Virus record (IMG/VR): IMGVR_UViG_3300031993_000049
Origin: a virus
Taxonomy: Duplodnaviria; Heunggongvirae; Uroviricota; Caudoviricetes
Length of the DNA: 64,000 nucleotides
Reading direction: 5' to 3' (one strand)
Notes under the pieces: model-generated
Databases searched by the model: none
What the model was told of the DNA's origin: nothing
Seen by the model: only the letters and a program-made list of their open reading frames with translations
Made by a program: the position numbers and the translations under genes
Shown here: positions 231 to 64,000 of the stretch, in pieces
How the letters are laid out: the number at the start of each line of letters is the position of its first letter
How positions within the stretch are numbered: the stretch's first letter is position 1

Positions 231-632
231 ATGACACAGGAAGAAAAAGATTTATTGTTAAAAGACCTTTGTGCAAGGTTGCCATATGGTGTAATATGTG
301 ATAGATTAGAAAAGCCAAAGAAACTATTAGGGGTTTATCCAACTAAAAAATTCCCATTGGAGTTTGATAATGGGGAATATATGCCAAGTGACTATGAGTT
401 AGAGGACATTAAGCCATATCTTCGTCCAATGTCAAGTATGACTGAGGAAGAGAAAGAAGAGTATATTCATATTAAACAAGGGGAATGCAATGGCTGTGTT
501 CTTACAGGAAAAGGTGACCCAAATACAGAATTTTTATTGGTAGATTTTTTCAATACACACCATATAGATTATCGTGGTTTGATACCTATGGGACTTGCTC
601 TTCCTGCACCAGAAGGAATGTATAAAAATTAA
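231..632 (+). CDS. Family-A paralog (conserved blocks MTQEEKDLLLKDLCARLPYGV / KPYLRPMSSMTEEE / HHIDYRGLI..GLALPAPEGMYK), function unknown
   Basis: ATG ORF. Shares three conserved anchor blocks with the tandem array at 53608-55887. Confidence 0.8.
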   Translation: MTQEEKDLLLKDLCARLPYGVICDRLEKPKKLLGVYPTKKFPLEFDNGEYMPSDYELEDIKPYLRPMSSMTEEEKEEYIHIKQGECNGCVLTGKGDPNTEFLLVDFFNTHHIDYRGLIPMGLALPAPEGMYKN

Positions 633-16816: not shown

Positions 16817-16829
16817 ATTATTTTAGCGT

Positions 16830-17012: not shown

Positions 17013-17016
17013 AGTT

Positions 17017-17286: not shown

Positions 17287-17292
17287 AAAGAT

Positions 17293-18278: not shown

Positions 18279-18281
18279 ACT

Positions 18282-23442: not shown

Positions 23443-23688
23443 ATGGATACAACAGGAATTATAGTATTAATAGTTTATGTTATCGGGTATTTTCTTAGTT
23501 TCTTTCTGACAATCAAATACTGCAGAAATAATAAGGAGTATCTGACACTCTCAGAATTTGCTTGGATGTCGTTTATGTCACTTGCGTCATGGATTAGTGC
23601 AATTACACTTTATATCTTTACGCACGAGGACAAACCCGTGATGAGATTCAAGGATAAATCAATCTTTACTGAGAAAGACGATTTTTAA
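23443..23688 (+). CDS. 2-TM membrane protein, paralog D1
   Basis: Similar to 47942-48163 (ITLSEFAWMSFMSLASWI versus ITLSELVWMSFLSLFSWI). Confidence 0.7.
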   Translation: MDTTGIIVLIVYVIGYFLSFFLTIKYCRNNKEYLTLSEFAWMSFMSLASWISAITLYIFTHEDKPVMRFKDKSIFTEKDDF

Positions 23689-25123: not shown

Positions 25124-26287
25124 ATGGAAAGTAAAAAAATTGTTATTACCAGCGTCATCGCTGTGTTTGTAATCATTGTTCTCTGCTGCATTGGCAGTCT
25201 TGTTGAGGACGTAAAGAATGAAACTATCGTCGTTAACCAGGTACCTATTACAGGTACGATGGAAGTATGGAGCCAGCCTGGTATGTATGTCCAGAAGTTC
25301 GGCCACACCACGACCTATCACAAGACCGAGCAACTTTGGTTCGGTGCCCAGGAAAATGGTGAACCTATCAAGGTAATTTTTAACGACGCTTCTAATGGTT
25401 TGATTTATGGCTCACTTCGAGTAAAGTTGCCGACAGACCGAGAGCATATGCTTCGTATTCAAACCGATTACAACGGTACGGACCGACTTATGAATGACCT
25501 TATCCGTCCTACTGTTACCAAGGTTGTATACGCTTCAGGCCCGCTTATGAGTGCATTCGAATCTTATGCAGAGAAGAAAAACAACTTGATCGAATACATT
25601 ACGGACCAGTTGAACAACGGTGTTTACACTACCACAGTTCGCACAGTTGATGTTGTTGACCCGATTACAGGCGAGACCAAGACACAGAAAGTAGCCGCAC
25701 TTATCCCCGACAGTTTGTCAGCAGGTGGATTCCGCCGTTCCGAGAGTTCTCCGTTTGAGTTCTACGGAATTGAGATTGGCCAGGTATCCGTTTCTGAGAT
25801 TGACTATGAGGACAAAGTTAAACAGCAAATCGCACAGCAACAGGAGGCAAACATGTTGATCCAGACCTCTAAGTCCAAGGCTGCTGCAGCACAACAGGAA
25901 GCCATTCGTGCAGAGCAAGAAGGTAAGGCATCTGCAGCAAAGGCTAAGTGGGAGCAGGAGAAGATTAAGGCTATCGAGGTTACAAAGGCTGAGCAGGAGC
26001 GTGAGGTTTCTCGACTTGCAGCAGAAAAGGCTGAGTTCGATAAGAAACGTATCATTGCCGAAGGTGAGGCAGAGGCTGCTGCTAACCGTGCAAAGGTTGC
26101 CGCAGGTTTGACCCCGCAGGAACGTGCCGAATGGGATTACAAGACCAGAGTTGGTGTTGCAGAGGCCGTTGCTAAGGTTACACTTCCGAAGGTTGTTATG
26201 GGCGGAAATGGACAGGGTGGAAACGCAACTATGGACATCATGAGTCTCAAGTTTGCTACCGACCTTGTTGAGAAACTTAGCAAGTAA
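25124..26287 (+). CDS. SPFH/band-7 (prohibitin/flotillin-like) membrane protein
   Basis: N-terminal TM helix, then an SPFH-like core and a long Ala/Glu/Lys coiled coil. GC clearly higher than surroundings. Confidence 0.7.
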   Translation: MESKKIVITSVIAVFVIIVLCCIGSLVEDVKNETIVVNQVPITGTMEVWSQPGMYVQKFGHTTTYHKTEQLWFGAQENGEPIKVIFNDASNGLIYGSLRVKLPTDREHMLRIQTDYNGTDRLMNDLIRPTVTKVVYASGPLMSAFESYAEKKNNLIEYITDQLNNGVYTTTVRTVDVVDPITGETKTQKVAALIPDSLSAGGFRRSESSPFEFYGIEIGQVSVSEIDYEDKVKQQIAQQQEANMLIQTSKSKAAAAQQEAIRAEQEGKASAAKAKWEQEKIKAIEVTKAEQEREVSRLAAEKAEFDKKRIIAEGEAEAAANRAKVAAGLTPQERAEWDYKTRVGVAEAVAKVTLPKVVMGGNGQGGNATMDIMSLKFATDLVEKLSK

Positions 26288-29355: not shown

Positions 29356-29922
29356 ATGACAGTAATATACGGAAATCGTGGAGATATGGACACCCTTATG
29401 CTACCTAGCATATGGGAGAGATTAGACAATGTAAATGTTGTTGAAATCGGTCTTAGAACGTTTCACTTCGAAGATAGAGTAGCAGAGGCAATAGCCAATG
29501 AGGATGATACTCTTATTCTTTGCGGCCACGGAACGTCCTGGGGCCTTCTACACCCCAATTTCCATACTGGACAGTATATTATTCACGAGAACAATTATCG
29601 TGACATACACGCAAGAAATTTGATATGTGTATGGTGCCATGCTGCTGACTTTGCTGAGAGATATCACGTAAACGGTTTTTTTAGTTCAATGTTCATATCG
29701 AACGTTAATGAAGCACAAGAGCACCTTGGTAATGGTACAGACCTTACACAAGATCAGATTGGAGACTCGGAATTGATATTCTGCAGAAGACTTAATGCAC
29801 TTCTTAGGGATGGTACACCACTTAACGAGTGGGTGCCTACTTTGAAGAGTTTAATGAATGAAAATAATATGGTGGAGAGATATAATTATAATGGTTTAAA
29901 ATTTTTTGAGAATTATGAATGA
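29356..29922 (+). CDS. hypothetical protein
   Basis: Co-oriented ORF. Confidence 0.7.
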   Translation: MTVIYGNRGDMDTLMLPSIWERLDNVNVVEIGLRTFHFEDRVAEAIANEDDTLILCGHGTSWGLLHPNFHTGQYIIHENNYRDIHARNLICVWCHAADFAERYHVNGFFSSMFISNVNEAQEHLGNGTDLTQDQIGDSELIFCRRLNALLRDGTPLNEWVPTLKSLMNENNMVERYNYNGLKFFENYE

Positions 29923-31384
29923 GATTTTTACACAAAGTGAAAACATCAAGCACGAGTACTGTTGTACTATCGTGCGCATCGGCGAGATCAAGCCAATCGA
30001 GGGCAGGGATCGAATTGTACAGACACTGGTAAACGGTTTGTCTATGGTAATTCGTAAGGACCAGGTAAAAGAGGGTGACCTTATGATTTACGCGATGAAC
30101 GAAACACAGTTGTCCGAGAAGTTCCTTGCTGCTAATAACCTGTATGCTATCGACTGTTACGAAAAGAACAGTAATGCCCCAGAGGTGGGTCAATTACTAT
30201 TCGACGGTAAGAACGATGAGGCAAAGGAACACGTTGGTTTCTTCAATAAGTATGGCCGAGTGAAATTGATTAGACTTGGTGGTGTACCTTCATTCGGATA
30301 CCTCTTCACTGTTAACGAACTTGCAAAGGTATATCCTGAGGTTCTTAATGTTAACCTTGAGGAACTGGTAGACACCGACTTCGATACCGTATGCGGTGAG
30401 GAATTTGTAAAGGTATATATGCCACCTGTAAAGGAAGCAACACCTCGTGGTTCAAAGGAAGCAAAAATGCAGCGTAAACTCGCTAAGTTTGATCGTATGC
30501 TTCCAGGCCAGTTTGCTTTCCACTATGAGACAAAGCAACTCGCAAGGTACATTTCTTACATCAAGCCTACCGACGTGGTAACCATTTCTGTTAAGATGGA
30601 CGGTACTTCATTTATTGTTGGTAATATCCTTGTTAAGTTCCCTAAGTGGGATGGTTTCTACAAGAAGATATTCCCATATCTTCCTAAGTTCCTACAATTC
30701 ACTCGCGAGGATTATGATATTGTTTATTCTTCACGTAAGGTGATTATCAATAAGGATATTAATCCTAACAAGGGTGAAGGATGGGATGGTGGTTCTGTAC
30801 AGAAGGCCATTACTGTAGTTGCCGATCTTATCAGGGACTATGTTCCTAAGGATATGACTATCTACGGTGAGATTGTTGGTTATTACAATCAGACTAACAA
30901 GGCTATCCAAACTCGTGGTGGTAAGGATTATGACTATGGTTGCCCAGTGGGTACCAACAGGTTTATGCCTTATCGAATTGTTACAAAGAACGAGGATGGT
31001 ACAAATCACGAATGGAACGTTTGTGAGGTTTACGATTGGACTATCAATTTCATGAAGGAACATGAGGACCTTGCTAAGTACGTACAACCAATCGTTATCG
31101 TTTACCACGGTACGCTTGCTGACCTTTATCCACAACTTGACGTTGAGAATCATTGGCACGAGAATGTTCTTGAGGCTATGAAGAACGACAAGAAGACACT
31201 TGGTCTTGAGGTATATGAGCCAATGTGTAAGGATAAGGTATGGCGTGAAGGTGTAGTACTCCGTGTTGACGACGATATGGTTAACGAAGCCTTCAAGTTG
31301 AAGAGTGTTAAATACTCTGAGAAGGAACGTGAGGATTACGACAAGGGTGTCATTGACCAGGAAGCAATGGAAGGATACCTTTAA
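29915..31384 (+). CDS. ATP-dependent RNA ligase-like nucleotidyltransferase with N-terminal OB-fold (tRNA-binding-domain-like) extension
   Basis: Motif I VKMDGTS (KxDG), motif III IYGEIVGYY, motif IV REGVVLRV, motif V FKLKSVKY. N-terminal EYCCTIVRIGEIKPIEGRDRIVQTLVNG resembles an OB domain. Track start 29906 is TTG; ATG used. Confidence 0.75.
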   Translation: MNEIFTQSENIKHEYCCTIVRIGEIKPIEGRDRIVQTLVNGLSMVIRKDQVKEGDLMIYAMNETQLSEKFLAANNLYAIDCYEKNSNAPEVGQLLFDGKNDEAKEHVGFFNKYGRVKLIRLGGVPSFGYLFTVNELAKVYPEVLNVNLEELVDTDFDTVCGEEFVKVYMPPVKEATPRGSKEAKMQRKLAKFDRMLPGQFAFHYETKQLARYISYIKPTDVVTISVKMDGTSFIVGNILVKFPKWDGFYKKIFPYLPKFLQFTREDYDIVYSSRKVIINKDINPNKGEGWDGGSVQKAITVVADLIRDYVPKDMTIYGEIVGYYNQTNKAIQTRGGKDYDYGCPVGTNRFMPYRIVTKNEDGTNHEWNVCEVYDWTINFMKEHEDLAKYVQPIVIVYHGTLADLYPQLDVENHWHENVLEAMKNDKKTLGLEVYEPMCKDKVWREGVVLRVDDDMVNEAFKLKSVKYSEKEREDYDKGVIDQEAMEGYL

Positions 31385-41563: not shown

Positions 41564-41935
41564 ATGACAAAGACAGCAGTAATGCAATCGGATTTTAACA
41601 TCACTGGAGAAATAGGTGGTGTTAAATATAAATATATAAAGATTCCATGGGTTGAACATCTAGAGATATATAAGTATTATCATGATAGTCAATCTGCGGA
41701 AAGAATTAATGAACGTGGTGGTTTTGGTGTAAGAGAAGCCGCTTATATGGGTTATAATCCTCTAGTTATTTGGGTAATTTATGATTACAGCGAAAAAGAT
41801 AGTGATTGGACAAAAGTAGCACTCCTTTTTGATAAAGACTCTGATTTTAGATCATACCGTTACAGGGTTTTAACTGAAGAAGAATACAAAAGTCTTGATA
41901 TATTTGAAAAAATTAAAGATACGTATGATAATTGA
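41564..41935 (+). CDS. hypothetical protein
   Basis: Co-oriented ORF. Confidence 0.65.
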   Translation: MTKTAVMQSDFNITGEIGGVKYKYIKIPWVEHLEIYKYYHDSQSAERINERGGFGVREAAYMGYNPLVIWVIYDYSEKDSDWTKVALLFDKDSDFRSYRYRVLTEEEYKSLDIFEKIKDTYDN

Positions 41936-42353
41936 AAATGAAAATTATGTTAGTTTTGAAACAGCAAAACTATTGAAAGATAATGGATTTGATTGGTCTT
42001 GCCGAGCAAGATACGGAAGTGCTGGTTCTTTCTGTTATGAAAAATATCCGATTGAAGCAAGTGGATGTGAAATGCACAATTGTATACTTTGTCCAACTCT
42101 TCAAATGGCTAAGAAATGGTTAGAAGAAGTTCACAATCTTTTCATTACTATTGAAATAAAAGGTGATCCACGAAAAGAGGATTTCATTTATTATAAATGG
42201 TCTGTTGCAAAATTTTGTTGTGTTAAAATTGAAAGAATTGATAACGGTTTAAACACACCAGAAGATTATTGGCTTGCACCTGAGGAAGAGGATGAAAAAC
42301 CTGAATATGCGTGTGAAGCAGCAATTAAATATTGTCTTGAAAATTTGATTTGA
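41925..42353 (+). CDS. Family-B paralog (YVSFETAKLLKDNGFD ... PTLQMAKKWL ... ACEAAIKYCLENLI)
   Basis: Shares N-terminus with 2328. Identical C-terminal 14 aa with 42350. Confidence 0.7.
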   Translation: MIIENENYVSFETAKLLKDNGFDWSCRARYGSAGSFCYEKYPIEASGCEMHNCILCPTLQMAKKWLEEVHNLFITIEIKGDPRKEDFIYYKWSVAKFCCVKIERIDNGLNTPEDYWLAPEEEDEKPEYACEAAIKYCLENLI

Positions 42354-42775
42354 TTATGATAGAAGAAGCATACGTTAGTTTTGAAGTGGCAAAACTTCTG
42401 AAAGAGAAGGGTTTTGATGTTGATACTCCAACAAGATATGCTATTGAAAAGGTAACAGAATCTTGGTATGATGATTATCGGGAAAGAGTTGTTAAATTCG
42501 ATTGGGATAGCGGTTATTTTTTAGGCATAAATGATATAAAACACGATATTAGTGGAGATACTATATCTGCTCCTACCCAACAGATGGCAATGCAATGGTT
42601 GAGAAAAATGGGTTGGTTTATTCATATTGATGTCATTCGAGAGGTGTCCTGCTGGACAGCAGATATTCAAGATATAAAGAATGATGTTGCCATTTATGCG
42701 GTTGAAAAAGAATTTCCCAACTATGAACAAGCATGTGAAGCAGCAATTAAATATTGCCTTGAAAATTTGATCTAA
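42350..42775 (+). CDS. Family-B paralog (YVSFEVAKLLKEKGFD ... ACEAAIKYCLENLI)
   Basis: Tandem with 41925. Confidence 0.7.
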   Translation: MIMIEEAYVSFEVAKLLKEKGFDVDTPTRYAIEKVTESWYDDYRERVVKFDWDSGYFLGINDIKHDISGDTISAPTQQMAMQWLRKMGWFIHIDVIREVSCWTADIQDIKNDVAIYAVEKEFPNYEQACEAAIKYCLENLI

Positions 42776-47681: not shown

Positions 47682-47945
47682 ATGACAAAAGATAAACTTG
47701 AAATACTAAATAGTTTAAAAAAACGTATTGAAGAATACGAACGTGCGCTTAAAAAACTCGCATTGAACGGTAGTAATCGTGAACATGGAATACATGATTA
47801 TCAATTTGGGTTGCTTTGGGAAAATCCAGTTTCATTTGATTATGAGCGTTCCATCGTATTTGTTGATGATAAATTAACAAAAGAATTCACTGTAATATTA
47901 GAAAAACGGCTTGAAGAATTGAAAAAACAATTTAATGAATTATGA
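47682..47945 (+). CDS. hypothetical protein
   Basis: Co-oriented ORF. Confidence 0.6.
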   Translation: MTKDKLEILNSLKKRIEEYERALKKLALNGSNREHGIHDYQFGLLWENPVSFDYERSIVFVDDKLTKEFTVILEKRLEELKKQFNEL

Positions 47946-48163
47946 GTATAACTGGAATAATTATTTTATTTGTATACCTTTTTGGGTTTGCAATTTCTTT
48001 TTGGATATTAGCAGCATATATAAGAAATAATGCTGATTACATAACCTTGTCAGAATTAGTGTGGATGTCGTTTTTGTCATTATTTTCTTGGATTGTTGCG
48101 TTTTCATTGTATATGGCTATATATAGTGACAAACCAATTATTAAATTTAAGAAAAAACATTAA
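47942..48163 (+). CDS. 2-TM membrane protein, paralog D2
   Basis: Similar to 23443-23688. Confidence 0.7.
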   Translation: MSITGIIILFVYLFGFAISFWILAAYIRNNADYITLSELVWMSFLSLFSWIVAFSLYMAIYSDKPIIKFKKKH

Positions 48164-50301: not shown

Positions 50302-50736
50302 ATGAAAACAAGTGAACTTCAAAACGAAACCAGTTCTTTGATAAAAGAACATAGCAAATTGTATAAATTAATTGACGAAAAAGAAGAAGCCATTACAGTT
50401 AAAGCAAGGGAATTACTAAATGAATTGCGTAAACTGGATAATTGGGAGGTAATGATTGACGAGTGTAAAGACCACTATGAACGATTTCCTGACGAATTCT
50501 TTGATTGGTGTCATGTAGAATTTGAAAAAAATAAGGTTTATTTTGTGAAGAATTATAGTGATGACGATGACGATTATTATGTTCTTACTATTGATTTGTC
50601 TAAGCCTTTAGAAGATCAAATAAAGGAAAAACAAGAAAAGATAAAAAAAGACGAGGAAAAAGAAAAAGAAAAAATTAAGGCAAAAGAACTTGCCGAATTA
50701 AACCGTTTAAAAGAAAAATATGAAACATTACGATAG
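50302..50736 (+). CDS. hypothetical coiled-coil protein
   Basis: Co-oriented ORF. Confidence 0.6.
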   Translation: MKTSELQNETSSLIKEHSKLYKLIDEKEEAITVKARELLNELRKLDNWEVMIDECKDHYERFPDEFFDWCHVEFEKNKVYFVKNYSDDDDDYYVLTIDLSKPLEDQIKEKQEKIKKDEEKEKEKIKAKELAELNRLKEKYETLR

Positions 50737-51397
50737 TATACCGAGAATACAAGATGATGGCACTTTGAAAGGTGAAATGGTTGTAGGTTATAACAAACTG
50801 GATGGCCAAAACTTTTGTGTAGCATATAATTGTAGAAAGAAAACCTGGGGTCCTTACGGTTCCAGGACAGTGACTGTAGATGAAAACTCTGAACAGTTTG
50901 GAGAAACTGTAAAGTTCTTTAACAACTCTGATTACAAGGAGATTCTGGAAAGAATTGTGAAGGAGTTTTCTGGAAAGGGTGACGTGTTTAACGGTGTTGA
51001 TGAAATCACATTCATATTTGAATGGTATGGATGGAATTCATTTGCTGGGAAGCATAAAGAAGGTGATACGATGAACCTGGCTCTTATTGATGTATTCCTC
51101 AAAAAGAGAGGTTATATTGAACCAAAGAATTATGAAATGTGTTTCAGATATTGTGGTATTGAACTTCCCGATCTAATTTATTCAGGGCCGCTAAATAGCG
51201 AAATTATTGAAAAAGTTCAGAACAACGACTGGACACAACCTGATTGTTGGAATCCACACGTTCACGAAGGTGTTGTATTTAAAAGAACAACATTGCTTAA
51301 GGGTCAGCGTAGACCGTCTGTAAAGGTAAAAACAAAGTGGTGGATAGATAAACTTCATTCAATGTATAGTGAAGAGGAATGTAAAAAACTTGAGTAA
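50720..51397 (+). CDS. minimal Rnl2-like nucleotidyltransferase (second KxDG ligase)
   Basis: Motif I VGYNKLDGQNF (K ~ residue 26), motif IV HEGVVFK, motif V VKVKTKWW. No C-terminal domain. Confidence 0.65.
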   Translation: MKHYDSIPRIQDDGTLKGEMVVGYNKLDGQNFCVAYNCRKKTWGPYGSRTVTVDENSEQFGETVKFFNNSDYKEILERIVKEFSGKGDVFNGVDEITFIFEWYGWNSFAGKHKEGDTMNLALIDVFLKKRGYIEPKNYEMCFRYCGIELPDLIYSGPLNSEIIEKVQNNDWTQPDCWNPHVHEGVVFKRTTLLKGQRRPSVKVKTKWWIDKLHSMYSEEECKKLE

Positions 51398-52931: not shown

Positions 52932-53324
52932 ATGGAACAGTTTGTTTGTACAACAATAGAACAGAGTAAGGCATTGCTTGACGCAGGCCTGGACATTGAA
53001 TCTGCAGATATGTATTATCGTTACGATTATAACGAACATACCTGTGAAAACAGTGTACCAAAAATACTTGAAGTATCAGTATGGGATGATCCTAATTGTA
53101 AAGATATACCAGCCTGGAGTGTTGGTAAATTGATCAATCTTATGCCTGATACAATGTATGGGCCATATCCGCCCGATCATTCAACGGACCTTATGATAAA
53201 TAATAAGGTAGTTAATTACTTTGACTGGACTGGAATGCAACATGGTCCCGATTTTACTGGCGGCAGTTTACGAGATAACTGTGTAGAAACAATAAAATGG
53301 CTATTAAAAAACGAAATCATATGA
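52932..53324 (+). CDS. Family-B-prime paralog (TIEQSKALLDAGLD)
   Basis: N-terminus similar to 2687. Confidence 0.65.
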   Translation: MEQFVCTTIEQSKALLDAGLDIESADMYYRYDYNEHTCENSVPKILEVSVWDDPNCKDIPAWSVGKLINLMPDTMYGPYPPDHSTDLMINNKVVNYFDWTGMQHGPDFTGGSLRDNCVETIKWLLKNEII

Positions 53325-53611
53325 CAAAGACATTTAGACAATTAGAACGAGGTGATAAGATTTTAGTTAAAAACATAACAAAACATGTACCTTGCAATGT
53401 TACAATAGACGACCATCATTACATAACGGAAGTTGTTAGTGAAGATAAAACAATGACTATTGACACATTCTCTCATTATGATAATGGTCTTGGAGGTAAG
53501 TTGGTAGAGTTTTATGCATATCCTTATTTAGGTGTAACTCTCAGATTTGAAATGGCTGTAGACGACTTAGATAAAACAGAAACAGAAAAATATAAAATAT
53601 TAGACATATGA
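53297..53611 (+). CDS. hypothetical protein
   Basis: Co-oriented ORF. True start may be the internal ATG at 53321. Confidence 0.5.
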   Translation: MAIKKRNHMTKTFRQLERGDKILVKNITKHVPCNVTIDDHHYITEVVSEDKTMTIDTFSHYDNGLGGKLVEFYAYPYLGVTLRFEMAVDDLDKTETEKYKILDI

Positions 53612-54006
53612 CAAATCAAGATAAAGAACTATTATTGAAAGACCTTTGTGGAAGGTTGTATTATGGCGTTAAATTTCACTATTTCTCAGAATTTGCTGAT
53701 GGTGAAGACCCAGAATTTGATAATACTATCGTAATGATAGATATGGCTGATGAGCAAATCCTTGACGAAGACCATGAAGATTATATTCCAATCAGACAGA
53801 TAGTGCCGTATCTCCGTCCATTATCTAGTATGACTGATGAAGAAGATAAAGAATTTGCTCTTCTTCAAACTGACTTTTATGTTGATGGGTTTCTTTATCC
53901 AATTGCAGCAGTAAATATGATTAATTGGCTTAATAAACATCATTTTGACTACAATGGATTAATTGAAAAAGGCTTAGCATTGGAGGCACCTAAAGATATG
54001 TATTAA
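53608..54006 (+). CDS. Family-A paralog 1 of tandem array
   Basis: MTNQDKELLLKDLCGRLYYGV ... VPYLRPLSSMTDEE ... HHFDYNGLIEKGLALEAPKDMY. Confidence 0.8.
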   Translation: MTNQDKELLLKDLCGRLYYGVKFHYFSEFADGEDPEFDNTIVMIDMADEQILDEDHEDYIPIRQIVPYLRPLSSMTDEEDKEFALLQTDFYVDGFLYPIAAVNMINWLNKHHFDYNGLIEKGLALEAPKDMY

Positions 54007-54008
54007 TT

Positions 54009-54413
54009 ATGGAAAAAGAAAAACAATATTTTAAGACTCAGATTACACGCAATGGATTAGATCTTATCGTTAAAGATATGTCTGCTCGTATAGCATACGG
54101 AGTAATGGTTTCCGATGTACATATGGATGGAGATGTATTAACCTCGCCATATAAATTGTGGGATATTATTATTGATGACTGGTACGATGAAAATTTTGAT
54201 AATTACCAAATGTGCTATCTTCGTCCCATGTCAAGTATGACAAAAAAAGAAAAAGAAGAGTTTGAAAAAACTTGTTTCTTTTCCAATGAGATTGGTACTA
54301 TTCAAACTATAGAAAGTGCTGATTGGTTAAATGCACATCACTTTGATTACCGTGGTTTAATTGAATTAGGTTTAGCATTTAAGGCCCCTAAAGATATGTA
54401 TAAATTCGAATAA
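54009..54413 (+). CDS. Family-A paralog 2 (divergent N-terminus)
   Basis: CYLRPMSSMTKKEKEE ... HHFDYRGLIELGLAFKAPKDMYKFE. Confidence 0.8.
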   Translation: MEKEKQYFKTQITRNGLDLIVKDMSARIAYGVMVSDVHMDGDVLTSPYKLWDIIIDDWYDENFDNYQMCYLRPMSSMTKKEKEEFEKTCFFSNEIGTIQTIESADWLNAHHFDYRGLIELGLAFKAPKDMYKFE

Positions 54414-54415
54414 TT

Positions 54416-54850
54416 ATGACACAAGAAGAAAAAGAATTATTAGCAAAAGATATTTTTAGTCGTGCAATGTGTGGATTAAAGGTACAATATCATGGAGAAA
54501 TATATACTTTGGGATATAACCTTTATCTGGAAGAAAGTTCAACAGCGTTTGAAAGTTATCCAATGAAATGTTTTCTAAGTAAGATTGAGGAAATTAAACC
54601 CTATCTTCGCCCAATGTCAAGTATGACTGAGGAAGAACGTAATGATTTTGAAGATGAATCTCATGGCTGGTTTTATGTTAATGATGATGGTGAAATATAT
54701 CCTATTGGTCAATTTACTGATAGTGGTGAATTTGAAGATGGAATATTAGGTGGTATAGAATATTTAAATAAAAACCATTTTGATTACCGTGGTTTAATTC
54801 ATAGAGAACTTGCTCTTGAAGCACCTGAAGATATGTATAAAACAAAATAA
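54416..54850 (+). CDS. Family-A paralog 3
   Basis: MTQEEKELLAKDIFSR ... KPYLRPMSSMTEEE ... NHFDYRGLIHRELALEAPEDMYK. Confidence 0.8.
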   Translation: MTQEEKELLAKDIFSRAMCGLKVQYHGEIYTLGYNLYLEESSTAFESYPMKCFLSKIEEIKPYLRPMSSMTEEERNDFEDESHGWFYVNDDGEIYPIGQFTDSGEFEDGILGGIEYLNKNHFDYRGLIHRELALEAPEDMYKTK

Positions 54851-54852
54851 CT

Positions 54853-55302
54853 ATGACACAAGAAGATAAAGAACTATTATTGACAGACATTTGTGCAAGA
54901 CTACCTTATGGTGTTAAAGTAGAAAATACAAGTTTTTCAGAATCACAAATACATACACTGTTCGGTAGAGTTTCTGATGATGAATTTCTGATGTTAGAAA
55001 CATATAAAAGTGTTGGTGGTGAAGATTATAGAAGAGTTACCGATGATATACATTATACAGGTTATTTAGAAAACATTAAACCTTATCTCCGTCCTATGTC
55101 AAGTATGACTGAAAAGGAATGTTATGAATTGCATTTCATTAGAAGCAATTTTACGGATAATTGGAAGTACATCAAGACTCCGATTCCGTTGAGTATCGCT
55201 AACTATAATCAAGTCGATTGGCTCAACAGTCATCACTTTGATTATCGAGGTTTAATTGAAAAAGGGCTTGCACTTGAAGCACCTGCAGATATGTATAAAT
55301 AA
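54853..55302 (+). CDS. Family-A paralog 4
   Basis: MTQEDKELLLTDICARLPYGV ... KPYLRPMSSMTEKE ... HHFDYRGLIEKGLALEAPADMYK. Confidence 0.8.
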   Translation: MTQEDKELLLTDICARLPYGVKVENTSFSESQIHTLFGRVSDDEFLMLETYKSVGGEDYRRVTDDIHYTGYLENIKPYLRPMSSMTEKECYELHFIRSNFTDNWKYIKTPIPLSIANYNQVDWLNSHHFDYRGLIEKGLALEAPADMYK

Positions 55303-55313
55303 CTTTTATTGAT

Positions 55314-55514
55314 ATGATAAAGACATGTTACTATGCTATTATAGATAAATGGTATGATACGTATATTGGCAATGACAACAAGAAACACCGTAAATACTAT
55401 ACTAATATAATACATTATATGGAAGGTGGATATCCAATGAAATACATAGAAAATATTAATAAACTACCTAGACATCAATATAGTTATATTTGGAGTTTTT
55501 GTCCAATTAAGTAA
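55314..55514 (+). CDS. hypothetical protein interrupting the array
   Basis: Co-oriented ORF. Confidence 0.5.
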   Translation: MIKTCYYAIIDKWYDTYIGNDNKKHRKYYTNIIHYMEGGYPMKYIENINKLPRHQYSYIWSFCPIK

Positions 55515-55527
55515 ATAATAGATAGAT

Positions 55528-55887
55528 ATGACACAGGAAGATAAAGAATTATTATTGAAAGATCTTTGTGCAAGGTTACCTTATGGCGTAATGTTATATG
55601 TTGAAGGTATAAAGAAAAATATTAAGTTATTTGCAGTTGAAGATACTGGAATAAACGGTTTTCAATTTCAGTTTGTTAAACCATATCTCCGTTCAATGTC
55701 TTCGATGACAGAAGATGAAATAGAAGAATATAATAATATAACTCTTATTCATACTCCTTGGGGCATTATGACAGACAGAATAATCGAATTAATCAATTTT
55801 CTCAACTCTCGCCACTTTGACTACAGAGGACTCATAGATAAAGGTATTGCACTTGAAGCACCTAAAGATATGTATAAATTTGATTAA
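55528..55887 (+). CDS. Family-A paralog 5
   Basis: MTQEDKELLLKDLCARLPYGV ... KPYLRSMSSMTEDE ... RHFDYRGLIDKGIALEAPKDMYKFD. Confidence 0.8.
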   Translation: MTQEDKELLLKDLCARLPYGVMLYVEGIKKNIKLFAVEDTGINGFQFQFVKPYLRSMSSMTEDEIEEYNNITLIHTPWGIMTDRIIELINFLNSRHFDYRGLIDKGIALEAPKDMYKFD

Positions 55888-55889
55888 TT

Positions 55890-56051
55890 ATGAAAAAATA
55901 TCACTCAAAAGGTACATGTTCTCAATGTCTTTTTGGTCCATATTATAAAAATGGTAAGAATTGGTGTACTGAGCATAATAGAGAAATTAAAAATCCAAAT
56001 ATAGAACATTGTAATCAATTTTGGAGAGGTGATTTTGCAAAAAGAAAATAA
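55890..56051 (+). CDS. small Cys-containing protein
   Basis: 53-aa ATG ORF (CSQC...CTEH...HC). Confidence 0.4.
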   Translation: MKKYHSKGTCSQCLFGPYYKNGKNWCTEHNREIKNPNIEHCNQFWRGDFAKRK

Positions 56052-56061
56052 TTTAAAAATT

Positions 56062-56217
56062 ATGACACAAGAAGAAATTAAACAATATCTTAAAGACAAT
56101 TTGAAATTGGGATATTTTAAATATAGATCGTGCGGTCAAAATTACATAGGTTTTAAACTTACGTTAGGCGAAGAAATAATCAGTGAAATTAGACCAAGTA
56201 TAAAATCCTTTTTTTAA
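56062..56217 (+). CDS. short ORF with the Family-A MTQEE N-terminal start (possible truncated family member)
   Basis: MTQEEIKQYLKDNLKLGYFKY. Same atgacacaagaagaa start sequence as the array genes. Confidence 0.4.
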   Translation: MTQEEIKQYLKDNLKLGYFKYRSCGQNYIGFKLTLGEEIISEIRPSIKSFF

Positions 56218-56401
56218 TTATGATCACAGTAATAAATAATTACATACAGTGTGACGAATGTGGTAGGGATTTGGCATATGACAATAGTGATACCTATGAA
56301 TCCTGGAACTGGAACCATAGATATAGAGTAATATATTTGGATTGCCCTAAATGTGGTAATTCTATTGCAATAAGACGATTAGAAGAAAAAAATGTATAAT
56401 T

Positions 56402-56728
56402 ATGTACAGAAAGTATGGAATAGCAATTTTACCTTGGAGAGGGGACCCAAAAACATTAATCGAATGGAGAAGTGAAGATGATGCATTCGTTAATGTAAGT
56501 GATGAACATTTTGGAGGTATACCAGAAGACAAGGTTGATTTTGATATTGATCACGTCGTAGATTTTCTATTAGGTGAAGGAAGATACCAAATGGGATTAT
56601 ACTTACCTGATGAAATATTAAAATTAATGAAACAAAGATGCCCAGAATCGGAAACTTGGTTGATGGGACAAATTGATTATATGATTAGGCAAAACAGAAG
56701 ATATTATGACACAAGAAGAATTATTTGA
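56402..56728 (+). CDS. hypothetical protein
   Basis: Co-oriented ORF. Confidence 0.6.
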   Translation: MYRKYGIAILPWRGDPKTLIEWRSEDDAFVNVSDEHFGGIPEDKVDFDIDHVVDFLLGEGRYQMGLYLPDEILKLMKQRCPESETWLMGQIDYMIRQNRRYYDTRRII

Positions 56729-56912
56729 AATAGTAGCAAAAGGATATGAAGCAGCATTAAGTTCATGTTTTGACGGTGGAGCATTATATGCAAGAGGATT
56801 TGTCGACGGAATGGCATTTCAAAAAGATGGAACCATTCCAATGAGCAAACTAGATAGAATACTTAAAGAAATAGAAGATAAAAAGAAAAATGAAAAGACC
56901 GAAGAAAATTGA
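56706..56912 (+). CDS. hypothetical protein (MTQEE start)
   Basis: Co-oriented ORF. Confidence 0.55.
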   Translation: MTQEELFEIVAKGYEAALSSCFDGGALYARGFVDGMAFQKDGTIPMSKLDRILKEIEDKKKNEKTEEN

Positions 56913-57144
56913 AATTGGAGACACTGTTACGTGGATTAAAGAAAAAAGACACGTTGTATCATTCCTGGAAGATAATAAAGAGCCATTAGTTGTTTTTAAA
57001 ATTTGGTACCCGTCTAGAGGGTGGAAATATTATTGTGAATATCTTAAGTTGTTCCTTTATAATATTTGCCTGCAGGAAGAATACACTAAAGCAAAAAGAA
57101 ATAAACTTTACAAATTAAATGGATTAGTATATGGAGAATGGTAA
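56890..57144 (+). CDS. hypothetical protein
   Basis: Co-oriented ORF. Confidence 0.55.
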   Translation: MKRPKKIEIGDTVTWIKEKRHVVSFLEDNKEPLVVFKIWYPSRGWKYYCEYLKLFLYNICLQEEYTKAKRNKLYKLNGLVYGEW

Positions 57145-59913: not shown

Positions 59914-60260
59914 TGGTAGACGAAGAAAGGCAAGAAATTGTAAATAAAAAAGCCGAAGAGGAAAACAACTTTTTTCTTCGTGCAGCCGCTGGATTAATTC
60001 CACAAGAGGAACACTTCAAGGAAGGTTTCATAAAGGGCGTAGAATGGCAAAAAAACGGCATTTGGAGGAAATGTGCCAAAGAGGTACCCACGCATATGGG
60101 CGAAGAAATAATCGTTCTGTGCCGAAACAAGAATAAACCCGATGGTATTTGGCTTTCTGACCTTATCCAATGTTGGGAAGGAAAGTGGGAACCGCGAGTT
60201 AACTATGAGACTCCAGTTTACTGGACATATGTTAACGACATACTCCCCGATGTTGATTAA
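59910..60260 (+). CDS. hypothetical protein
   Basis: 4-nt overlap. Confidence 0.65.
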   Translation: MMVDEERQEIVNKKAEEENNFFLRAAAGLIPQEEHFKEGFIKGVEWQKNGIWRKCAKEVPTHMGEEIIVLCRNKNKPDGIWLSDLIQCWEGKWEPRVNYETPVYWTYVNDILPDVD

Positions 60261-60286
60261 TTTTTGTATATTTAGATTGTCAAGAT

Positions 60287-60307
60287 CAGTTTGGCACGGT
60301 ATTTGTA
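60287..60307 (+). promoter_or_regulatory. conserved 21-mer CAGTTTGGCACGGTATTTGTA (copy 5)
   Basis: Exact copy, 14 nt upstream of the ATG of 60321. Confidence 0.45.
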
Positions 60308-60320
60308 GAATAAAAATAGT

Positions 60321-60542
60321 ATGACATACGAAGAATACATATCATTTATTTGGGAATGTGTTGCACAATGTCCTAAGTACTGGCGGAAAGGTCAGTCAGT
60401 GTTCAATATAATTGACAAAAAGTTTGGTGATGTTGCCAGGAATGTTCAATACATTGACGGTATTGACTGCTTCCACCAAGACGAAATGATTGAACCATTT
60501 ATTGCTAAATGTTGGGAACGAATAAATAAAAAACAATTATGA
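60321..60542 (+). CDS. hypothetical protein
   Basis: Co-oriented ORF. Confidence 0.6.
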   Translation: MTYEEYISFIWECVAQCPKYWRKGQSVFNIIDKKFGDVARNVQYIDGIDCFHQDEMIEPFIAKCWERINKKQL

Positions 60543-60763: not shown

Positions 60764-61384
60764 ATGATAACATTAGAAGAAATAAAGAAACTTAACGGTT
60801 TGTATAGCCTGCCGAAGTATATCCACGTTAACAAACATATACTTCTGGACTACCGACTGTTCTATGCACTTGCAGAACCCGATCCTGAAAGGGACTTCGT
60901 GTACGACTGTGATGTGTACCTCAATAAGTATGGTATCAATCTTCAGAGACCGTACGTATGGGAGCATTATCAGCAGAAGGAGTTCATTATGGCTATCCTT
61001 ACCGAAAAGGAACTGGACCCTTTGATAATAATTACACACTATAAGGGTCCTATTGAAAGAGACCACTGCATCAATTACGTTATTGACGGCAAACAAAGAT
61101 TAACAACGATCAAAAAATTTGCTCATAACGAATTTCCAATTCAAGTAGATGGTAAAGATTACTATTTCAAAGATTTTGATGCGGAATTGAGGAAGTTTTT
61201 TATCTCACGTGTAAACTATATGGTTGCCACCGTGTATTATTCTTATGATGATATGCCAATTACCGACGATATGAAGATTACTCTCTTCAATTTCTACAAT
61301 TTCTCTGGCACACCACAGACGGAGGAACATAAAAATAAGTTAATCAAATTAATGAAAAAAGAAGATGAACCAGGATGTAATTAA
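60764..61384 (+). CDS. DUF262 / ParB-like nuclease-domain protein
   Basis: VIDGKQRLTTIKKF matches the DGQQR motif of the DUF262 (GmrSD N-terminal) family. Confidence 0.65.
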   Translation: MITLEEIKKLNGLYSLPKYIHVNKHILLDYRLFYALAEPDPERDFVYDCDVYLNKYGINLQRPYVWEHYQQKEFIMAILTEKELDPLIIITHYKGPIERDHCINYVIDGKQRLTTIKKFAHNEFPIQVDGKDYYFKDFDAELRKFFISRVNYMVATVYYSYDDMPITDDMKITLFNFYNFSGTPQTEEHKNKLIKLMKKEDEPGCN

Positions 61385-61687: not shown

Positions 61688-61939
61688 ATGATTTATCTTA
61701 TATTATATTTAGTTGGAAGTTTAGTTTCACTAATATGGATGTTAAAAATCACCAAAGAAGTTGAGGATGTTTTAACAATTAAAGACTTATTAGGCTTAAT
61801 TTTAATATCTATTGCTTCGTGGCTGTCTGTTTTTATCATTATCAGGGAAGAATTAATAAGTAGAGGTGTTATTGATAAAATGCTTGAAAAATTAGACAAC
61901 TGGTTAAATAAAGAAATTTATGAGTTCGATAAAAAATGA
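61688..61939 (+). CDS. small membrane protein
   Basis: Hydrophobic ORF. Confidence 0.55.
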   Translation: MIYLILYLVGSLVSLIWMLKITKEVEDVLTIKDLLGLILISIASWLSVFIIIREELISRGVIDKMLEKLDNWLNKEIYEFDKK

Positions 61940-63181: not shown

Positions 63182-64000
63182 ATGTTGACAAGAAACATTT
63201 ATAATTACGAAACAGTCTTCAATGTAATGGTTGAAGAGACAGCCAAATATCTCAAAAAGAATGGCTTAAAAACTATGGTCCTTGGTATATCTGGTGGACT
63301 TGATTCTACTGTATGTGCGGCAATCTGTCACGAGGTAACTAAACGCTATCCTGAATTCCGTTTCATTGGTGTTAGTCTGCCTTGCACCAGTAATACCGAA
63401 CGCGAAAATGACAGCGCAGAAATGGCAATGAAAGCGTTTTGCAATGAACGTCACACTGCTAATCTGCAGGGTCAGTACGAATCAATGAAATCTCTTTGTG
63501 AGACTTACTTCCAGTCCACCAATATTTCCCAGGGTAATATCAAGGCACGCCTTCGTATGATTTACCTGTACAACATCGCTTCTGTAACAAGAGGCCTTGT
63601 AATTGATACAGATAATCTTACCGAACACTATCTTGGGTTCTTCACGTTGCATGGAGACCAGGGAGACTTCAATCCGATTGGTGGACTTTGGAAACACGAA
63701 GTATATGCGTTGTGCCATTACTTGTTTACTGCTTATTATAAATCAGCAAGTTCACAGTACTATGCACTGAAAGCGGCATACGACATCACACCTACTGACG
63801 GTAATGGTGTTGCTGATGGTGGTGATATGGCACAGATTGCTCCAGGACATACCTACTTTGACGTAGATGATATTCTCGATACTTATCTTGAATATCGTGG
63901 GCACCACCCAGAGGAATACAATATTGCAATGGAAGAACTGAATAAAAAATACGGTGCAGATACCGTTGATAAGGTTCTTCGCAGATGCGATAATTCTGAA
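63182..64000 (+). CDS. nadE: NH3-dependent NAD+ synthetase, 3' end outside window
   Basis: PP-loop LGISGGLDSTV. NIKARLRMIYLYNIA, VIDTDNLTEHYLGFFTLHGDQGDFNPI match NadE. No stop before window end. Confidence 0.85.
   Translation, partial: MLTRNIYNYETVFNVMVEETAKYLKKNGLKTMVLGISGGLDSTVCAAICHEVTKRYPEFRFIGVSLPCTSNTERENDSAEMAMKAFCNERHTANLQGQYESMKSLCETYFQSTNISQGNIKARLRMIYLYNIASVTRGLVIDTDNLTEHYLGFFTLHGDQGDFNPIGGLWKHEVYALCHYLFTAYYKSASSQYYALKAAYDITPTDGNGVADGGDMAQIAPGHTYFDVDDILDTYLEYRGHHPEEYNIAMEELNKKYGADTVDKVLRRCDNSE

What the first reader, a model, noticed from the sequence alone, without database searches (positions are those of the whole stretch)
53608..55887. Tandem array of five diversified Family-A paralogs with three conserved anchors and two hypervariable cassettes
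Five adjacent genes (53608, 54009, 54416, 54853, 55528) and a sixth copy at 231-632 share three blocks. There is an N-terminal block MTQEDKELLLKDLCARLPYGV, a central KPYLRPMSSMTEEE block and a C-terminal HHFDYRGLIEKGLALEAPKDMYK block. The two segments between the anchors differ completely in length and sequence. Short ORFs at 999, 56062 and 56706 reuse the same atgacacaagaagaa start, like N-terminal remnants. The conserved blocks differ at synonymous positions, so the family is old and under selection rather than a recent duplication. This scaffold-plus-variable-loop layout is what would be expected for a set of binders or inhibitors, each targeting a different host factor. An example would be an anti-defence or host-takeover repertoire. 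I recognise no known domain.
Basis: seen in the sequence. Interest (0 to 1): 0.8.

Follow-up and report, generated by a model that had tools for sequence, protein, structure and literature searches.

The report
Cassette-shuffling phage protein family array
Five neighbouring genes in a giant rumen phage belong to a very large, unnamed family of small acidic phage proteins. Each protein has a fixed three-part frame holding two interchangeable modules, and these modules have been swapped between genes and between phages. What the proteins do is still unknown.

Summary
Six ORFs in the window (five in tandem at 53608-55887, one at 231-632) share three conserved blocks separated by two unalignable segments. 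Three more copies lie on the same 254-kb contig outside the window. The family has at least 5,966 clusters at 50% identity. It has no Pfam model and no solved relative. I found it only in phage-like contigs from rumen, gut and marine samples, and in cultured Cellulophaga (Bacteroidota) phages, where it is PHROG 10841, function unknown.

Two AlphaFold models (pLDDT 81 and 86) give one fold: an N-terminal helix, a small SH3-like barrel and helices. The cassettes encode core strands and helices as well as loops.

The main new result is that the two cassettes are discrete, old module types. Within a type they are under purifying selection (dN/dS about 0.15, the same as the anchors). They reassort independently. 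Of 483 pairs sharing cassette 1, 436 have an unrelated cassette 2. DNA identity drops from about 90% to random exactly at the anchor edges.

Arrays hold 1 to 27 copies per 20 kb and show no sign of recent duplication.

The binder or anti-defence reading fits the data (acidic, non-virion, accessory-gene region) but is untested. The short "MTQEE" ORFs are not family members.

The parts
53608..54006 (+). Family member 1 (132 aa)
   Evidence: ORF. HMM E 2.4e-47. Its V2 type recurs in 17 other proteins, all with a different V1.
54009..54413 (+). Family member 2 (134 aa). It has an 11-residue N-terminal extension and a degenerate N anchor.
   Evidence: HMM E 2.2e-38.
54416..54850 (+). Family member 3 (144 aa), with the longest V2 in the window (36 aa, net charge -10)
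   Evidence: Its V1 type is shared with 14 other proteins, none of which has the same V2.
54853..55302 (+). Family member 4 (149 aa), the protein used for the first structure model
   Evidence: AlphaFold model pLDDT 80.7, pTM 0.75. Its V1 type is seen in 21 other proteins and its V2 type in 4, never both together.
54853..54915 (+). N anchor of member 4 (residues 1-21, MTQEDKELLLTDICARLPYGV): helix 1 and the start of strand 1
   Evidence: Entropy 0-1.5 bits. Helix 3-19 with pLDDT 95.
54916..55074 (+). Cassette V1 of member 4 (residues 22-74): strands of the SH3-like barrel plus a low-confidence loop
   Evidence: Entropy about 3-3.9 bits. Strands 22-25, 32-41, 44-47 and 68-71. About 90% nt identity to L035:10001-10489.
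55075..55128 (+). Central anchor of member 4 (residues 75-92, IKPYLRPMSSMTEKECYE): last barrel strand plus the N-cap of helix 2. The DNA identity breakpoint lies at its 3' edge.
55129..55212 (+). Cassette V2 of member 4 (residues 93-120): end of helix 2, a variable loop and the start of helix 3
   Evidence: Unalignable with L035, although both flanks are 88-90% identical at the DNA level. pLDDT is low at residues 101-103.
55213..55302 (+). C anchor of member 4 (residues 121-149, VDWLNSHHFDYRGLIEKGLALEAPADMYK) plus the stop codon
   Evidence: Entropy 0-0.8 bits for most columns. pLDDT 96. Direct-repeat family D2.
55314..55514 (+). Unrelated 66-aa ORF that interrupts the array between members 4 and 5
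   Evidence: ORF. Called as a gene in the ENA record. No HMM or PHROG match.
55528..55887 (+). Family member 5 (119 aa, the shortest cassettes in the window)
   Evidence: E 9.2e-45.
231..632 (+). Family member 6 (133 aa), a lone copy 53 kb upstream and the protein used for the second structure model
   Evidence: E 1.7e-61. Model pLDDT 86, pTM 0.81. Its V1 type is seen in 24 other proteins and its V2 type in 22, never both together.
56062..56217 (+). 51-aa ORF that shares only the MTQEE start (weak resemblance up to about residue 12). It is not a family member.
   Evidence: HMM E 1.5. No PHROG match.

Best explanation
**What it is (shown).** The genes are members of a very large, unannotated protein family that I found only in phage or phage-like sequences. 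Each protein is about 120-150 aa, acidic, and has no signal peptide or transmembrane feature that I could see. A conserved three-piece frame holds two exchangeable modules.
- The frame is: the N-terminal helix; the strand plus helix cap 'KPYLRPMSSMTEEE'; and the end of helix 3 plus the extended tail 'DWLNxHHFDYRGLIxxGLALEAP'.
- V1 (22-75 aa) supplies most strands of a small SH3-like barrel.
- V2 (9-56 aa) is a helix-loop-helix insert.

**How it evolves (shown).** V1 and V2 exist as hundreds of discrete, old types. Each type is kept by purifying selection. The types reassort independently, because exchange happens at the anchor-coding DNA. In a tandem array that DNA forms alternating conserved blocks: the C anchor of one gene, 2 nt, then the N anchor of the next gene (about 150 nt), and the central anchor (about 54 nt). 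Arrays in jumbo phages are collections of unrelated cassette combinations, not recent local duplications.

**What it probably does (inferred).** The proteins are non-virion accessory proteins. The frame provides a common fold and possibly a common docking site, built from the universally conserved polar residues K76, R80, S83, H128 and D130. The two modules each recognise a different partner. The most likely use is binding and neutralising variable host proteins, such as defence or other conflict effectors. A phage with more copies would then cover more host variants.
For: **Family size and distribution.**
- The word-indexed search saturated at 8,000 hits, none with a Pfam domain or a name.
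- The exhaustive search found 5,966 clusters at 50% identity with E<=1e-3.
- Loci lie on viral contigs of up to 413 kb and on rumen or gut MAG contigs.
- Among cultured phages, only Cellulophaga phages from several genera carry it; these proteins are phrog_10841.

**Independent assortment of the cassettes.**
- Member 4 against L035: about 90% nt identity through the N anchor, V1 and central anchor; random in V2; about 88% again in the C anchor.
- phi10:1 gp046 and phi13:1 gp097 have the same N-terminal half and C motif but unrelated V2.
- Across 483 domains, 436 of 483 pairs that share V1 have an unrelated V2, and 453 of 533 pairs that share V2 have an unrelated V1.
- Clustering gives 322 V1 types, 309 V2 types and 462 combinations. 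67 of 73 multi-member V1 types occur with at least two V2 types.
- In the subset with DNA in hand: 32 pairs share V1 only, 37 share V2 only, and 3 share both. Identity steps sharply at the anchor edges.

**Selection.** Within-type dN/dS is 0.154 for V1 and 0.163 for V2, against 0.135-0.171 for the anchors.

**Arrays.**
- There are 1 to 27 copies per locus of up to 20 kb.
- Within-locus cassette sharing is 0 or 1 of 531 pairs.
- The contig carrying the window has at least 9 copies in three clusters.

**Hints to function.**
- Mean net charge is -8.5, and 98% of domains are net negative.
- gp046 lies in the non-structural region of phi10:1 and is not among the proteins marked as virion components by MS/MS.
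- The window is a one-strand block of small genes carrying T4-type accessory functions (PNKP, RNA ligases, GmrSD_N-like, NAD salvage).
- The signature shared by the rumen and marine branches includes polar K, R, S, H and D residues.
Against: - No experiment, fusion or neighbour points to a target. The flanking genes are all unknown.
- No anti-defence library was available. PADLOC, which covers defence systems, gave nothing.
- Acidic charge and an accessory-region position are common among phage proteins of many functions.
- So many invariant polar residues could equally mean a conserved ligand or catalytic site rather than a passive scaffold.
- I could not inspect model coordinates. That the anchors pack together, or form one surface, is inferred from secondary structure and confidence values only.
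- The protein sets were partly chosen by similarity to the window copies and partly thinned by clustering at 50% or 90% identity. The ratio of discordant to concordant pairs is therefore inflated. The locus-derived subset shows the same trend, but on fewer pairs.
- Non-redundancy within arrays is not statistically different from random draws.
Confidence: 0.45

Rival explanations
1. **Adaptor model.** The conserved anchors dock every member onto one common partner, such as a host hub (RNA polymerase, a protease) or a phage enzyme. The cassettes recruit different substrates to that partner. This would resemble substrate-receptor families such as the poxvirus ankyrin/F-box proteins.
For: About half of the near-invariant anchor residues are polar (K6, D12, R16, K76, R80, S83, S84, T86, E89, N125, H127, H128, D130, R132). 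Five of them are kept even in the distant marine branch. That is more than a fold alone usually needs. The family seems limited to phages of Bacteroidota-type hosts, which would fit a lineage-specific hub.
Against: No partner is known, and there is no conserved neighbouring gene. Several of the polar residues can be explained structurally; for example S/T-x-x-E is a helix cap at the start of helix 2. The host restriction rests on MAG bin labels and on one cultured host genus.
Confidence: 0.2
2. **Small enzyme or ligand-binding protein.** The conserved K/R/S/H/D residues form an active or ligand site, for example a metal, nucleotide or signalling-molecule pocket. The cassettes only tune specificity or oligomerisation.
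For: There is an invariant HFD motif plus conserved R and S in both branches. The conserved Ser sits at a strand-to-helix turn.
Against: There is no sequence or fold match to any enzyme or sponge family. A single-function enzyme or sponge does not explain up to 27 non-redundant copies per genome. It also does not explain purifying selection on hundreds of distinct cassette types.
Confidence: 0.12
3. **Nucleic-acid-binding regulators.** The proteins use an SH3-like barrel of the KOW, Tudor, PAZ or Hfq kind, and each paralog controls different transcripts or DNA sites.
Confidence: 0.06
4. **Packaged internal proteins of the T4 IPI-III kind.** The conserved N-terminus would be a capsid-targeting sequence, and the variable remainder would be injected to block host restriction.
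For: The setting is a T4-like accessory region. The members sit in tandem, are diverse and share an N-terminus. Other small ORFs nearby share the same MTQEE start.
Against: The N anchor is a 17-residue helix that is part of the fold, with pLDDT 95. It has no (L/I)-x-E cleavage motif (sequence; the motif is from established T4 knowledge). The family also occurs in non-T4 siphoviruses. gp046 of phi10:1 is not among the virion proteins detected by MS/MS. Conservation is not limited to the N-terminus.
Confidence: 0.04
5. **Little or no function.** The cassettes would be relaxed spacers in a selfishly duplicating gene, or they would be diversified by a dedicated mutator such as a diversity-generating retroelement.
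For: Cassettes of different types cannot be aligned, with pN about equal to pS between paralogs.
Against: Within a cassette type dN/dS is about 0.15. All ORFs are intact. Neighbours in an array are no more alike than random members, so there is no recent duplication. The cassettes differ in length and are not adenine-specific variants of a template. The only repeats in the region are the anchors. None of the six window ORFs of 300 aa or more is a reverse transcriptase.
Confidence: 0.03

Closest known systems
PHROG phrog_10841 (Cellulophaga phage phi10:1 gp046, phi13:1 gp097 and relatives; function unknown)
   Same: All three anchors are recognisable: L.LKDL..LPY, KPxLRPxS and HFDxxGLIxxGLA. 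The size is the same. The two-cassette layout is the same, and the same cassette swapping is seen between phi10:1 and phi13:1.
   Different: It is a distant branch. The window proteins match the PHROG profile only weakly and partially (E from 5e-8 to 6e-3). The marine branch lacks the MTQEEKE start and the AP..MY tail. It occurs as one or two copies per 50-146-kb genome rather than in arrays.
T4-superfamily gp38 adhesins (conserved glycine-rich motifs flanking hypervariable segments; Trojet et al. 2011, PMC3157838)
   Same: The evolutionary logic is the same. Short conserved motifs delimit variable segments and act as sites of recombination that reshuffle the segments between phages.
   Different: There is no homology. 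gp38 is a single-copy virion adhesin with a polyglycine-sandwich fold. Here the proteins are small, acidic, non-virion and multi-copy, and the exchanged units are whole structural modules.
Lineage-specific gene expansions in jumbo phages (for example about 35 copies of a zinc ribbon in Bacillus phage G; Iyer et al. 2021, PMC7824862) and multigene families of large eukaryotic DNA viruses (poxvirus, ASFV MGFs; from general knowledge)
   Same: Many paralogs of a small protein sit in accessory regions of a large viral genome, and copy number varies between relatives.
   Different: These arrays show no sign of recent local duplication. Members are mosaics of two independently assorting modules drawn from a pool shared across many phages.
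SH3-like small beta-barrel domains (KOW, Tudor, PAZ, Hfq, PsaE, integrase C-terminal domain)
   Different: This is only a generic fold resemblance over 45-75 residues at under 15% identity. The barrel is embedded between an N-terminal helix and a helical/extended C-terminal part that has no solved counterpart. The proteins are acidic, not basic.
T4 internal proteins IPI/IPII/IPIII and the hyperplastic Ip loci of T4-like phages (established knowledge: Black and colleagues; Comeau & Krisch)
   Same: Diverse small proteins that share an N-terminus and are clustered in plastic regions of T4-like genomes.
   Different: Conservation is not limited to a cleavable roughly 10-residue targeting peptide. 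There is no L/I-x-E site. The family is present in siphoviruses and was not detected in the phi10:1 virion.

Membership tests
Family A / phrog_10841 superfamily | Three anchors in order: N helix (L.LKDL..LPY), KPxLRPxS, and HFDxxGLIxxGLA | tested here: met
   All six window ORFs match the HMM with E from 1e-38 to 1e-61. The Cellulophaga proteins hit the same HMM at 1e-14 to 1e-15. All 120 marine-branch proteins match at 1e-3 or better.
Family A / phrog_10841 superfamily | Significant full-length match to the PHROG 10841 profile itself | tested here: inconclusive
   The window copies hit phrog_10841 only partially, with E from 4.6e-8 to 6.3e-3. The Cellulophaga proteins hit it at about 1e-49. 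The window copies therefore belong to a related but distinct branch.
KOW / PAZ / Tudor / Hfq nucleic-acid or peptide-binding SH3-like barrels | Significant structural match to the domain plus its family sequence motifs and a basic or aromatic binding surface | tested here: not met
T4-type internal proteins (capsid-targeted) | An N-terminal targeting peptide of about 10 residues ending in an (L/I)-x-E prohead-protease site; the protein is present in the virion | tested here: not met
   There is no L/I-x-E in residues 1-21. The N anchor is a structured helix. phi10:1 gp046 is not annotated as detected by MS/MS in the virion.
Diversity-generating retroelement targets | A reverse transcriptase, plus a template repeat nearly identical to the variable region except at adenines | tested here: not met
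   None of the six window ORFs of 300 aa or more is a reverse transcriptase. The only repeats are the anchors, at 60-82% identity. The cassettes differ in length and cannot be aligned. The rest of the 254-kb contig was not scanned.
Known anti-phage defence system components (PADLOC) | A match to a PADLOC-DB model | tested here: not met
   There was only one chance-level hit, E 0.007 at 14 bits.
Known anti-defence proteins (Acr, Ocr, ArdA, Tad, Gad, Acb and others) | Sequence or fold match to a characterised anti-defence family | not testable with these tools
   No anti-defence library was available. Pfam, which includes Ocr, ArdA and Tad2-like models, gave no hit. BFVD fold hits are all to uncharacterised proteins. 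The AFDB library was unavailable.
Recombination-shuffled modular phage proteins (gp38-like logic) | Variable segments bounded by conserved motifs, with discordant ancestry of adjacent segments and breakpoints at the motifs | tested here: met
   This is membership of a mode of evolution, not of a homologous family.

The most novel reading that the evidence does not exclude
The family would be a combinatorial two-module recognition system of Bacteroidota phages. The conserved frame docks on a common host or phage effector site. V1 and V2 are independently exchangeable specificity modules, drawn from a pool of hundreds of types shared across phages. Jumbo phages assemble up to dozens of non-redundant combinations as a repertoire against variable host defence or conflict proteins. 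Recombination at the anchor-coding DNA would be the diversity generator, making this a phage counterpart of cassette-based repertoires such as pilin or VSG mini-cassettes.
Probability: 0.25. Interest if true: 0.85.

Novelty: new variant of a known kind. Interest (0 to 1): 0.62.

Why it matters
The family is one of the larger blocks of phage 'dark matter', with about 6,000 clusters at 50% identity and up to 27 copies in 20 kb of a 413-kb phage. To my knowledge, and in the literature I could search, it has never been described.

Its evolution can be read clearly. Two structural modules are kept by selection but exchanged freely at conserved joints. This gives a natural system for studying how phages build and reshuffle protein repertoires. 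If the modules are binding units, the family would also be a ready-made scaffold with two swappable specificity modules.

It is experimentally tractable, because distant members exist in cultured Cellulophaga baltica phages (phi10:1, phi13:1/phiST, phi4:1, Nekkels). Deletion, expression timing and pull-down experiments could be done now.

If the proteins turn out to neutralise host defences, array content could help predict host range in rumen and gut jumbo phages.

Tried and rejected
**Searches that found nothing.**
- Megablast of 53000-57000 against GenBank phages gave no match.
- tblastn of member 4 against GenBank phages gave no match. Only a consensus query reached the Cellulophaga phages.
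- Pfam, NCBIfam and PADLOC scans of the six proteins gave only chance-level hits.
- PDB sequence searches with two profiles gave nothing significant. The best hit is a 26-residue motif resemblance to 9mlu_C (E 0.03-0.07) and I could find no paper on that entry.
- The BFVD fold search returned only uncharacterised phage proteins. AFDB50 was not available.
- A Pfam scan of longer family proteins showed that most are read-through tandem fusions. One architecture carries a C-terminal DUF6794, also of unknown function.
- Literature searches for the PHROG id, for jumbo-phage paralog families and for anti-defence arrays found nothing on this family.
- The promoter and terminator scan of the array was no different from shuffled sequence.
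- PHROG scans of the ten flanking genes were uninformative.

**Ideas rejected.**
- PAZ or KOW homology: the match is not reproducible.
- Capsid-targeting peptide.
- DGR.
- Assembly chimeras.
- Recent tandem duplication.
- Active avoidance of redundant cassettes within an array: not significant, with 0-1 shared pairs observed against 1.2 expected.
- A close syntenic relative of the array, to look for gain and loss: none was found among 114 fetched loci.


Full report
**1. The observation**

ORF listing shows five + strand genes at 53608-54006, 54009-54413, 54416-54850, 54853-55302 and 55528-55887, and a sixth at 231-632.
- The first four are separated by only 2 nt.
- An unrelated 66-aa ORF (55314-55514) sits between the fourth and fifth.
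- The six proteins align with 25 invariant columns grouped into an N-terminal, a central and a C-terminal block.
- They hit each other at BLASTP E from 1e-17 to 1e-32.
- A family HMM run over every window ORF of 40 aa or more finds exactly these six.

The short ORFs at 999, 56062 and 56706 do share the 14-15-nt start ATGACACAAGAAGA(A). That motif occurs 7 times in the window against 0.01 expected. But they are not members (E above 1), and their similarity stops after codon 5, or about codon 12 for 56062.

Among the six copies, synonymous sites in the anchors are near saturation (pS 0.54-0.64) while pN is 0.20-0.25. In the cassettes pN (0.56-0.61) is about equal to pS. The longest exact nucleotide match between any two copies is 11-26 nt.

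**2. Where the window comes from**

The proteins are encoded on ENA contig ERZ27257203:k141_2048293, which is 253,946 bp. The window corresponds to about 59,394-123,393 of that contig.

The whole window is coded on one strand, at about 35% GC. It contains one tRNA-Arg(CCT) and T4-type accessory genes:
- polynucleotide kinase-phosphatase;
- two RNA ligases;
- T4_Y16D;
- a GmrSD_N-like protein;
- NAD synthase and NAPRTase.

This looks like the accessory region of a T4-like jumbo phage from a rumen or gut sample. A near-identical fragment occurs in JGI sample 3300028887.

Three further family members lie 9-12 kb beyond the window end, at contig positions of about 132.4-135.4 kb. The contig therefore has at least nine copies in three clusters.

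**3. Size and range of the family**

- A profile search of 5.8 billion proteins saturated at 8,000 hits. The top 120 are all 120-170 aa, with no Pfam domain and no name.
- An exhaustive HMMER scan of 1.84 billion cluster representatives found 5,966 clusters with E<=1e-3 and 3,603 with E<=1e-10.
- Related loci are on IMG/VR contigs of up to 413 kb. They are also on contigs of rumen or gut MAGs labelled Prevotella, Bacteroidales, Paludibacteraceae and others, some of them 286-410 kb and probably phage genomes binned with bacteria.
- In GenBank phages the only relatives are hypothetical proteins of Cellulophaga (Bacteroidota) phages from several genera: phi10:1, phi13:1/phiST/phi19:2, Nekkels, phi4:1 and phi19:3. 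These constitute phrog_10841, function unknown, and they match the window-family HMM at about 1e-15.
- The two branches share the signature LPY ... KPxLRPxS ... L..HFDxxGLIxxGLA.

I found no paper that describes the family.

**4. Structure**

AlphaFold2 models of member 4 (pLDDT 80.7, pTM 0.75) and member 6 (pLDDT 86.0, pTM 0.81) have different cassettes but the same topology. In order along the chain:
- helix 1 (N anchor);
- four or five short strands (V1 plus the central-anchor strand IKPYLR);
- helix 2, which starts at the SMTEEE cap of the central anchor and continues into V2;
- a variable loop;
- helix 3 (end of V2 plus DWLNxHH);
- a high-confidence extended tail (FDYRGLIxxGLALEAP).

Low confidence is confined to one loop in each cassette.

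So the cassettes are integral secondary-structure modules, not merely loops, and the complete fold has no solved counterpart.

**5. The cassettes are discrete, conserved and independently assorting**

This is the main result. Three lines of evidence support it.

*Explicit examples.*
- Member 4 and its best relative (L035:10001-10489) are about 90% identical at the DNA level through the N anchor, V1 and the central anchor. They become unalignable exactly after ...AGTATGACTGA (SMTE). They return to about 88% identity at GATTGGCTCAA (DWLN).
- In two unrelated cultured phages, phi10:1 gp046 and phi13:1 gp097 are near-identical in the N-terminal half and the C motif but have unrelated V2.

*A survey of the family.* I cut 483 full-length domains into segments by HMM state.
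- Mean pairwise identity is 0.18 for V1, 0.15 for V2 and 0.71 for the anchors.
- Of 483 pairs with V1 at 60% identity or more, 436 have V2 at 25% or less, and only 27 share V2.
- Of 533 pairs sharing V2, 453 have an unrelated V1.
- Single-linkage clustering gives 322 V1 types, 309 V2 types and 462 combinations.
- 67 of 73 multi-member V1 types occur with at least two V2 types.
- The V1 of member 6 is seen in 24 other proteins and its V2 in 22, never both together.

*Controls for bias and artefact.*
- These sets are partly biased by how they were retrieved and clustered. I therefore repeated the count on the 214 domains for which I hold DNA from fetched loci. There, 32 pairs share V1 only, 37 share V2 only and 3 share both. 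Nucleotide identity steps from about 0.75 to about 0.3 at the anchor edges.
- Assembly chimeras are unlikely. Exact repeats are at most 26 nt, and genomes of isolated phages show the same pattern.

*Selection within types.* Within a cassette type the pooled dN/dS is 0.154 for V1 (37 pairs) and 0.163 for V2 (39 pairs). This is indistinguishable from the anchors at 0.135-0.171. The cassettes are functional modules, not fast-evolving or junk sequence.

**6. Arrays**

- Per locus of up to 20 kb the copy number is 1 (50 loci), 2 (29), 3 (11), 4 (9), 5 (4), 6 (2), 16 (L040, on a 353-kb contig) and 27 (L083, on a 413-kb contig).
- Within arrays no two members share a cassette type. In L083, across 325 pairs, the maximum V1 identity is 0.33 and the maximum V2 identity is 0.38.
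- Over all loci, 0 (V1) and 1 (V2) of 531 within-locus pairs share a type, against 1.2 expected.
- Arrays are therefore not recent local duplications. Equally, there is no significant evidence that redundancy is actively avoided.
- At the DNA level a tandem array is a chain of conserved blocks alternating with V1 and V2. The blocks are the C anchor, 2 nt and the next N anchor (about 150 nt), and the central anchor (about 54 nt). That layout offers recombination sites for swapping single cassettes or whole genes.

**7. Function (inferred)**

- The proteins are strongly acidic, with a mean net charge of -8.5 and 98% net negative. This argues against nucleic-acid binding despite the barrel fold.
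- In phi10:1 the member lies in the non-structural region and is not among the virion proteins detected by MS/MS. This argues against a packaged internal protein.
- No enzyme family matches.
- The large non-redundant arrays, the purifying selection on hundreds of module types and the accessory-region setting fit a repertoire of binding proteins aimed at variable partners. Host defence or other conflict proteins are the most plausible targets.
- The many invariant polar anchor residues leave two other options open: a common docking partner (the adaptor model) or a conserved ligand or catalytic site.
- I put about 0.9 on the architecture and shuffling claims and about 0.35-0.4 on the binder or inhibitor function. 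The overall figure is 0.45.

**8. Comparison with known systems, and novelty**

- The nearest homologous family is phrog_10841 (unknown function).
- The nearest mechanistic analogue is T4-type gp38, where conserved glycine-rich motifs bound hypervariable segments and mediate their exchange (PMC3157838).
- Lineage-specific expansions in jumbo phages are also known, for example the phage G zinc ribbons (PMC7824862).
- What is new here is the combination: a very large non-virion family, two independently assorting structural modules, and arrays of up to dozens of copies.
- I rate it a new variant of a known kind, with interest 0.62.

Noticed in passing
window 2328-2684, 41895-42353, 42350-42775; L035 11344-14024: A second paralog family begins M[IV]TEDYVS.ETAK.LKEKGF and ends ...A.E..IKY.L..LI, with a variable middle. 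In the related phage locus L035 it is interleaved with family A genes. It may follow the same anchors-plus-variable-centre logic.
   Followed up: partly
window 2687-3070 / 52932-53324; 23443-23688 / 47942-48163 / 61688-61939; 8133-8786 / 8798-9442; 15508-15690 / 18042-18278; 12512-12667 / 60142-60324: All-against-all BLASTP detected five further small paralog groups in the window. The accessory region is rich in multi-copy dark-matter genes.
   Followed up: no
window 999-1142, 56062-56217, 56706-56912, and the central anchors (for example 54230-54277): The start ATGACACAAGAAGA (MTQEE) is reused by three non-family ORFs, 7 occurrences in total against 0.01 expected. The central anchor of family A encodes a near-copy of it (ATGACTGAAGAAGA, SMTEEE), also at the start of a helix. 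This may be a favoured helix-cap or translation-start motif, or a trace of an ancient fusion of two ORFs.
   Followed up: partly
window 10025-10927, 29906-31384, 50720-51397, 12409-12481: There is a T4-type RNA repair set: polynucleotide kinase-phosphatase plus two RNA ligases, one with a PHA02142 OB domain. A phage tRNA-Arg(CCT) is also present. Together these suggest counter-measures against host anticodon nucleases.
   Followed up: no
window 60764-61384 and about 63182-64000 (cut by the window end): A GmrSD_N (DUF262)-like protein is encoded by the phage. An NAD synthase gene follows, and an NAPRTase gene lies just beyond the window. NAD synthesis genes are a reported feature of gastrointestinal jumbo phages (PMC11662467, title and abstract only).
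   Followed up: no
L112 5322-5534 (about 4.5 kb upstream of the window start on the same contig): A 70-aa gene has a weak Tad2-like (PF11195) hit. It may be an anti-Thoeris sponge relative lying in the same accessory region.
   Followed up: no
window 19342-21555; 25124-26287: A 737-aa ORF has a GNAT acetyltransferase domain at residues 222-296 and is otherwise unknown. A 387-aa ORF is an SPFH/Band 7 protein.
   Followed up: no
L035 10637-11347; protein P0136: Some family A members carry a C-terminal DUF6794 domain (E 3e-23). This was the only recurrent fusion partner I saw, and its function is also unknown.
   Followed up: partly
PDB 9mlu chain C, residues 5-30: A 78-residue chain named 'fibronectin-binding protein' contains [26 protein letters not shown], which resembles the C anchor (NxHHFDYRGLIxxGLALEAP). 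The E-value is 0.03-0.07, which is not significant, and I found no paper on the entry.
   Followed up: partly
L083 (IMGVR_UViG_3300031994_000001, 413 kb) 692-18299; L040 (IMGVR_UViG_3300031992_000005, 353 kb): These are the largest arrays seen: 27 and 16 family A genes within 20 kb, all on one strand, with no repeated cassette type.
   Followed up: partly
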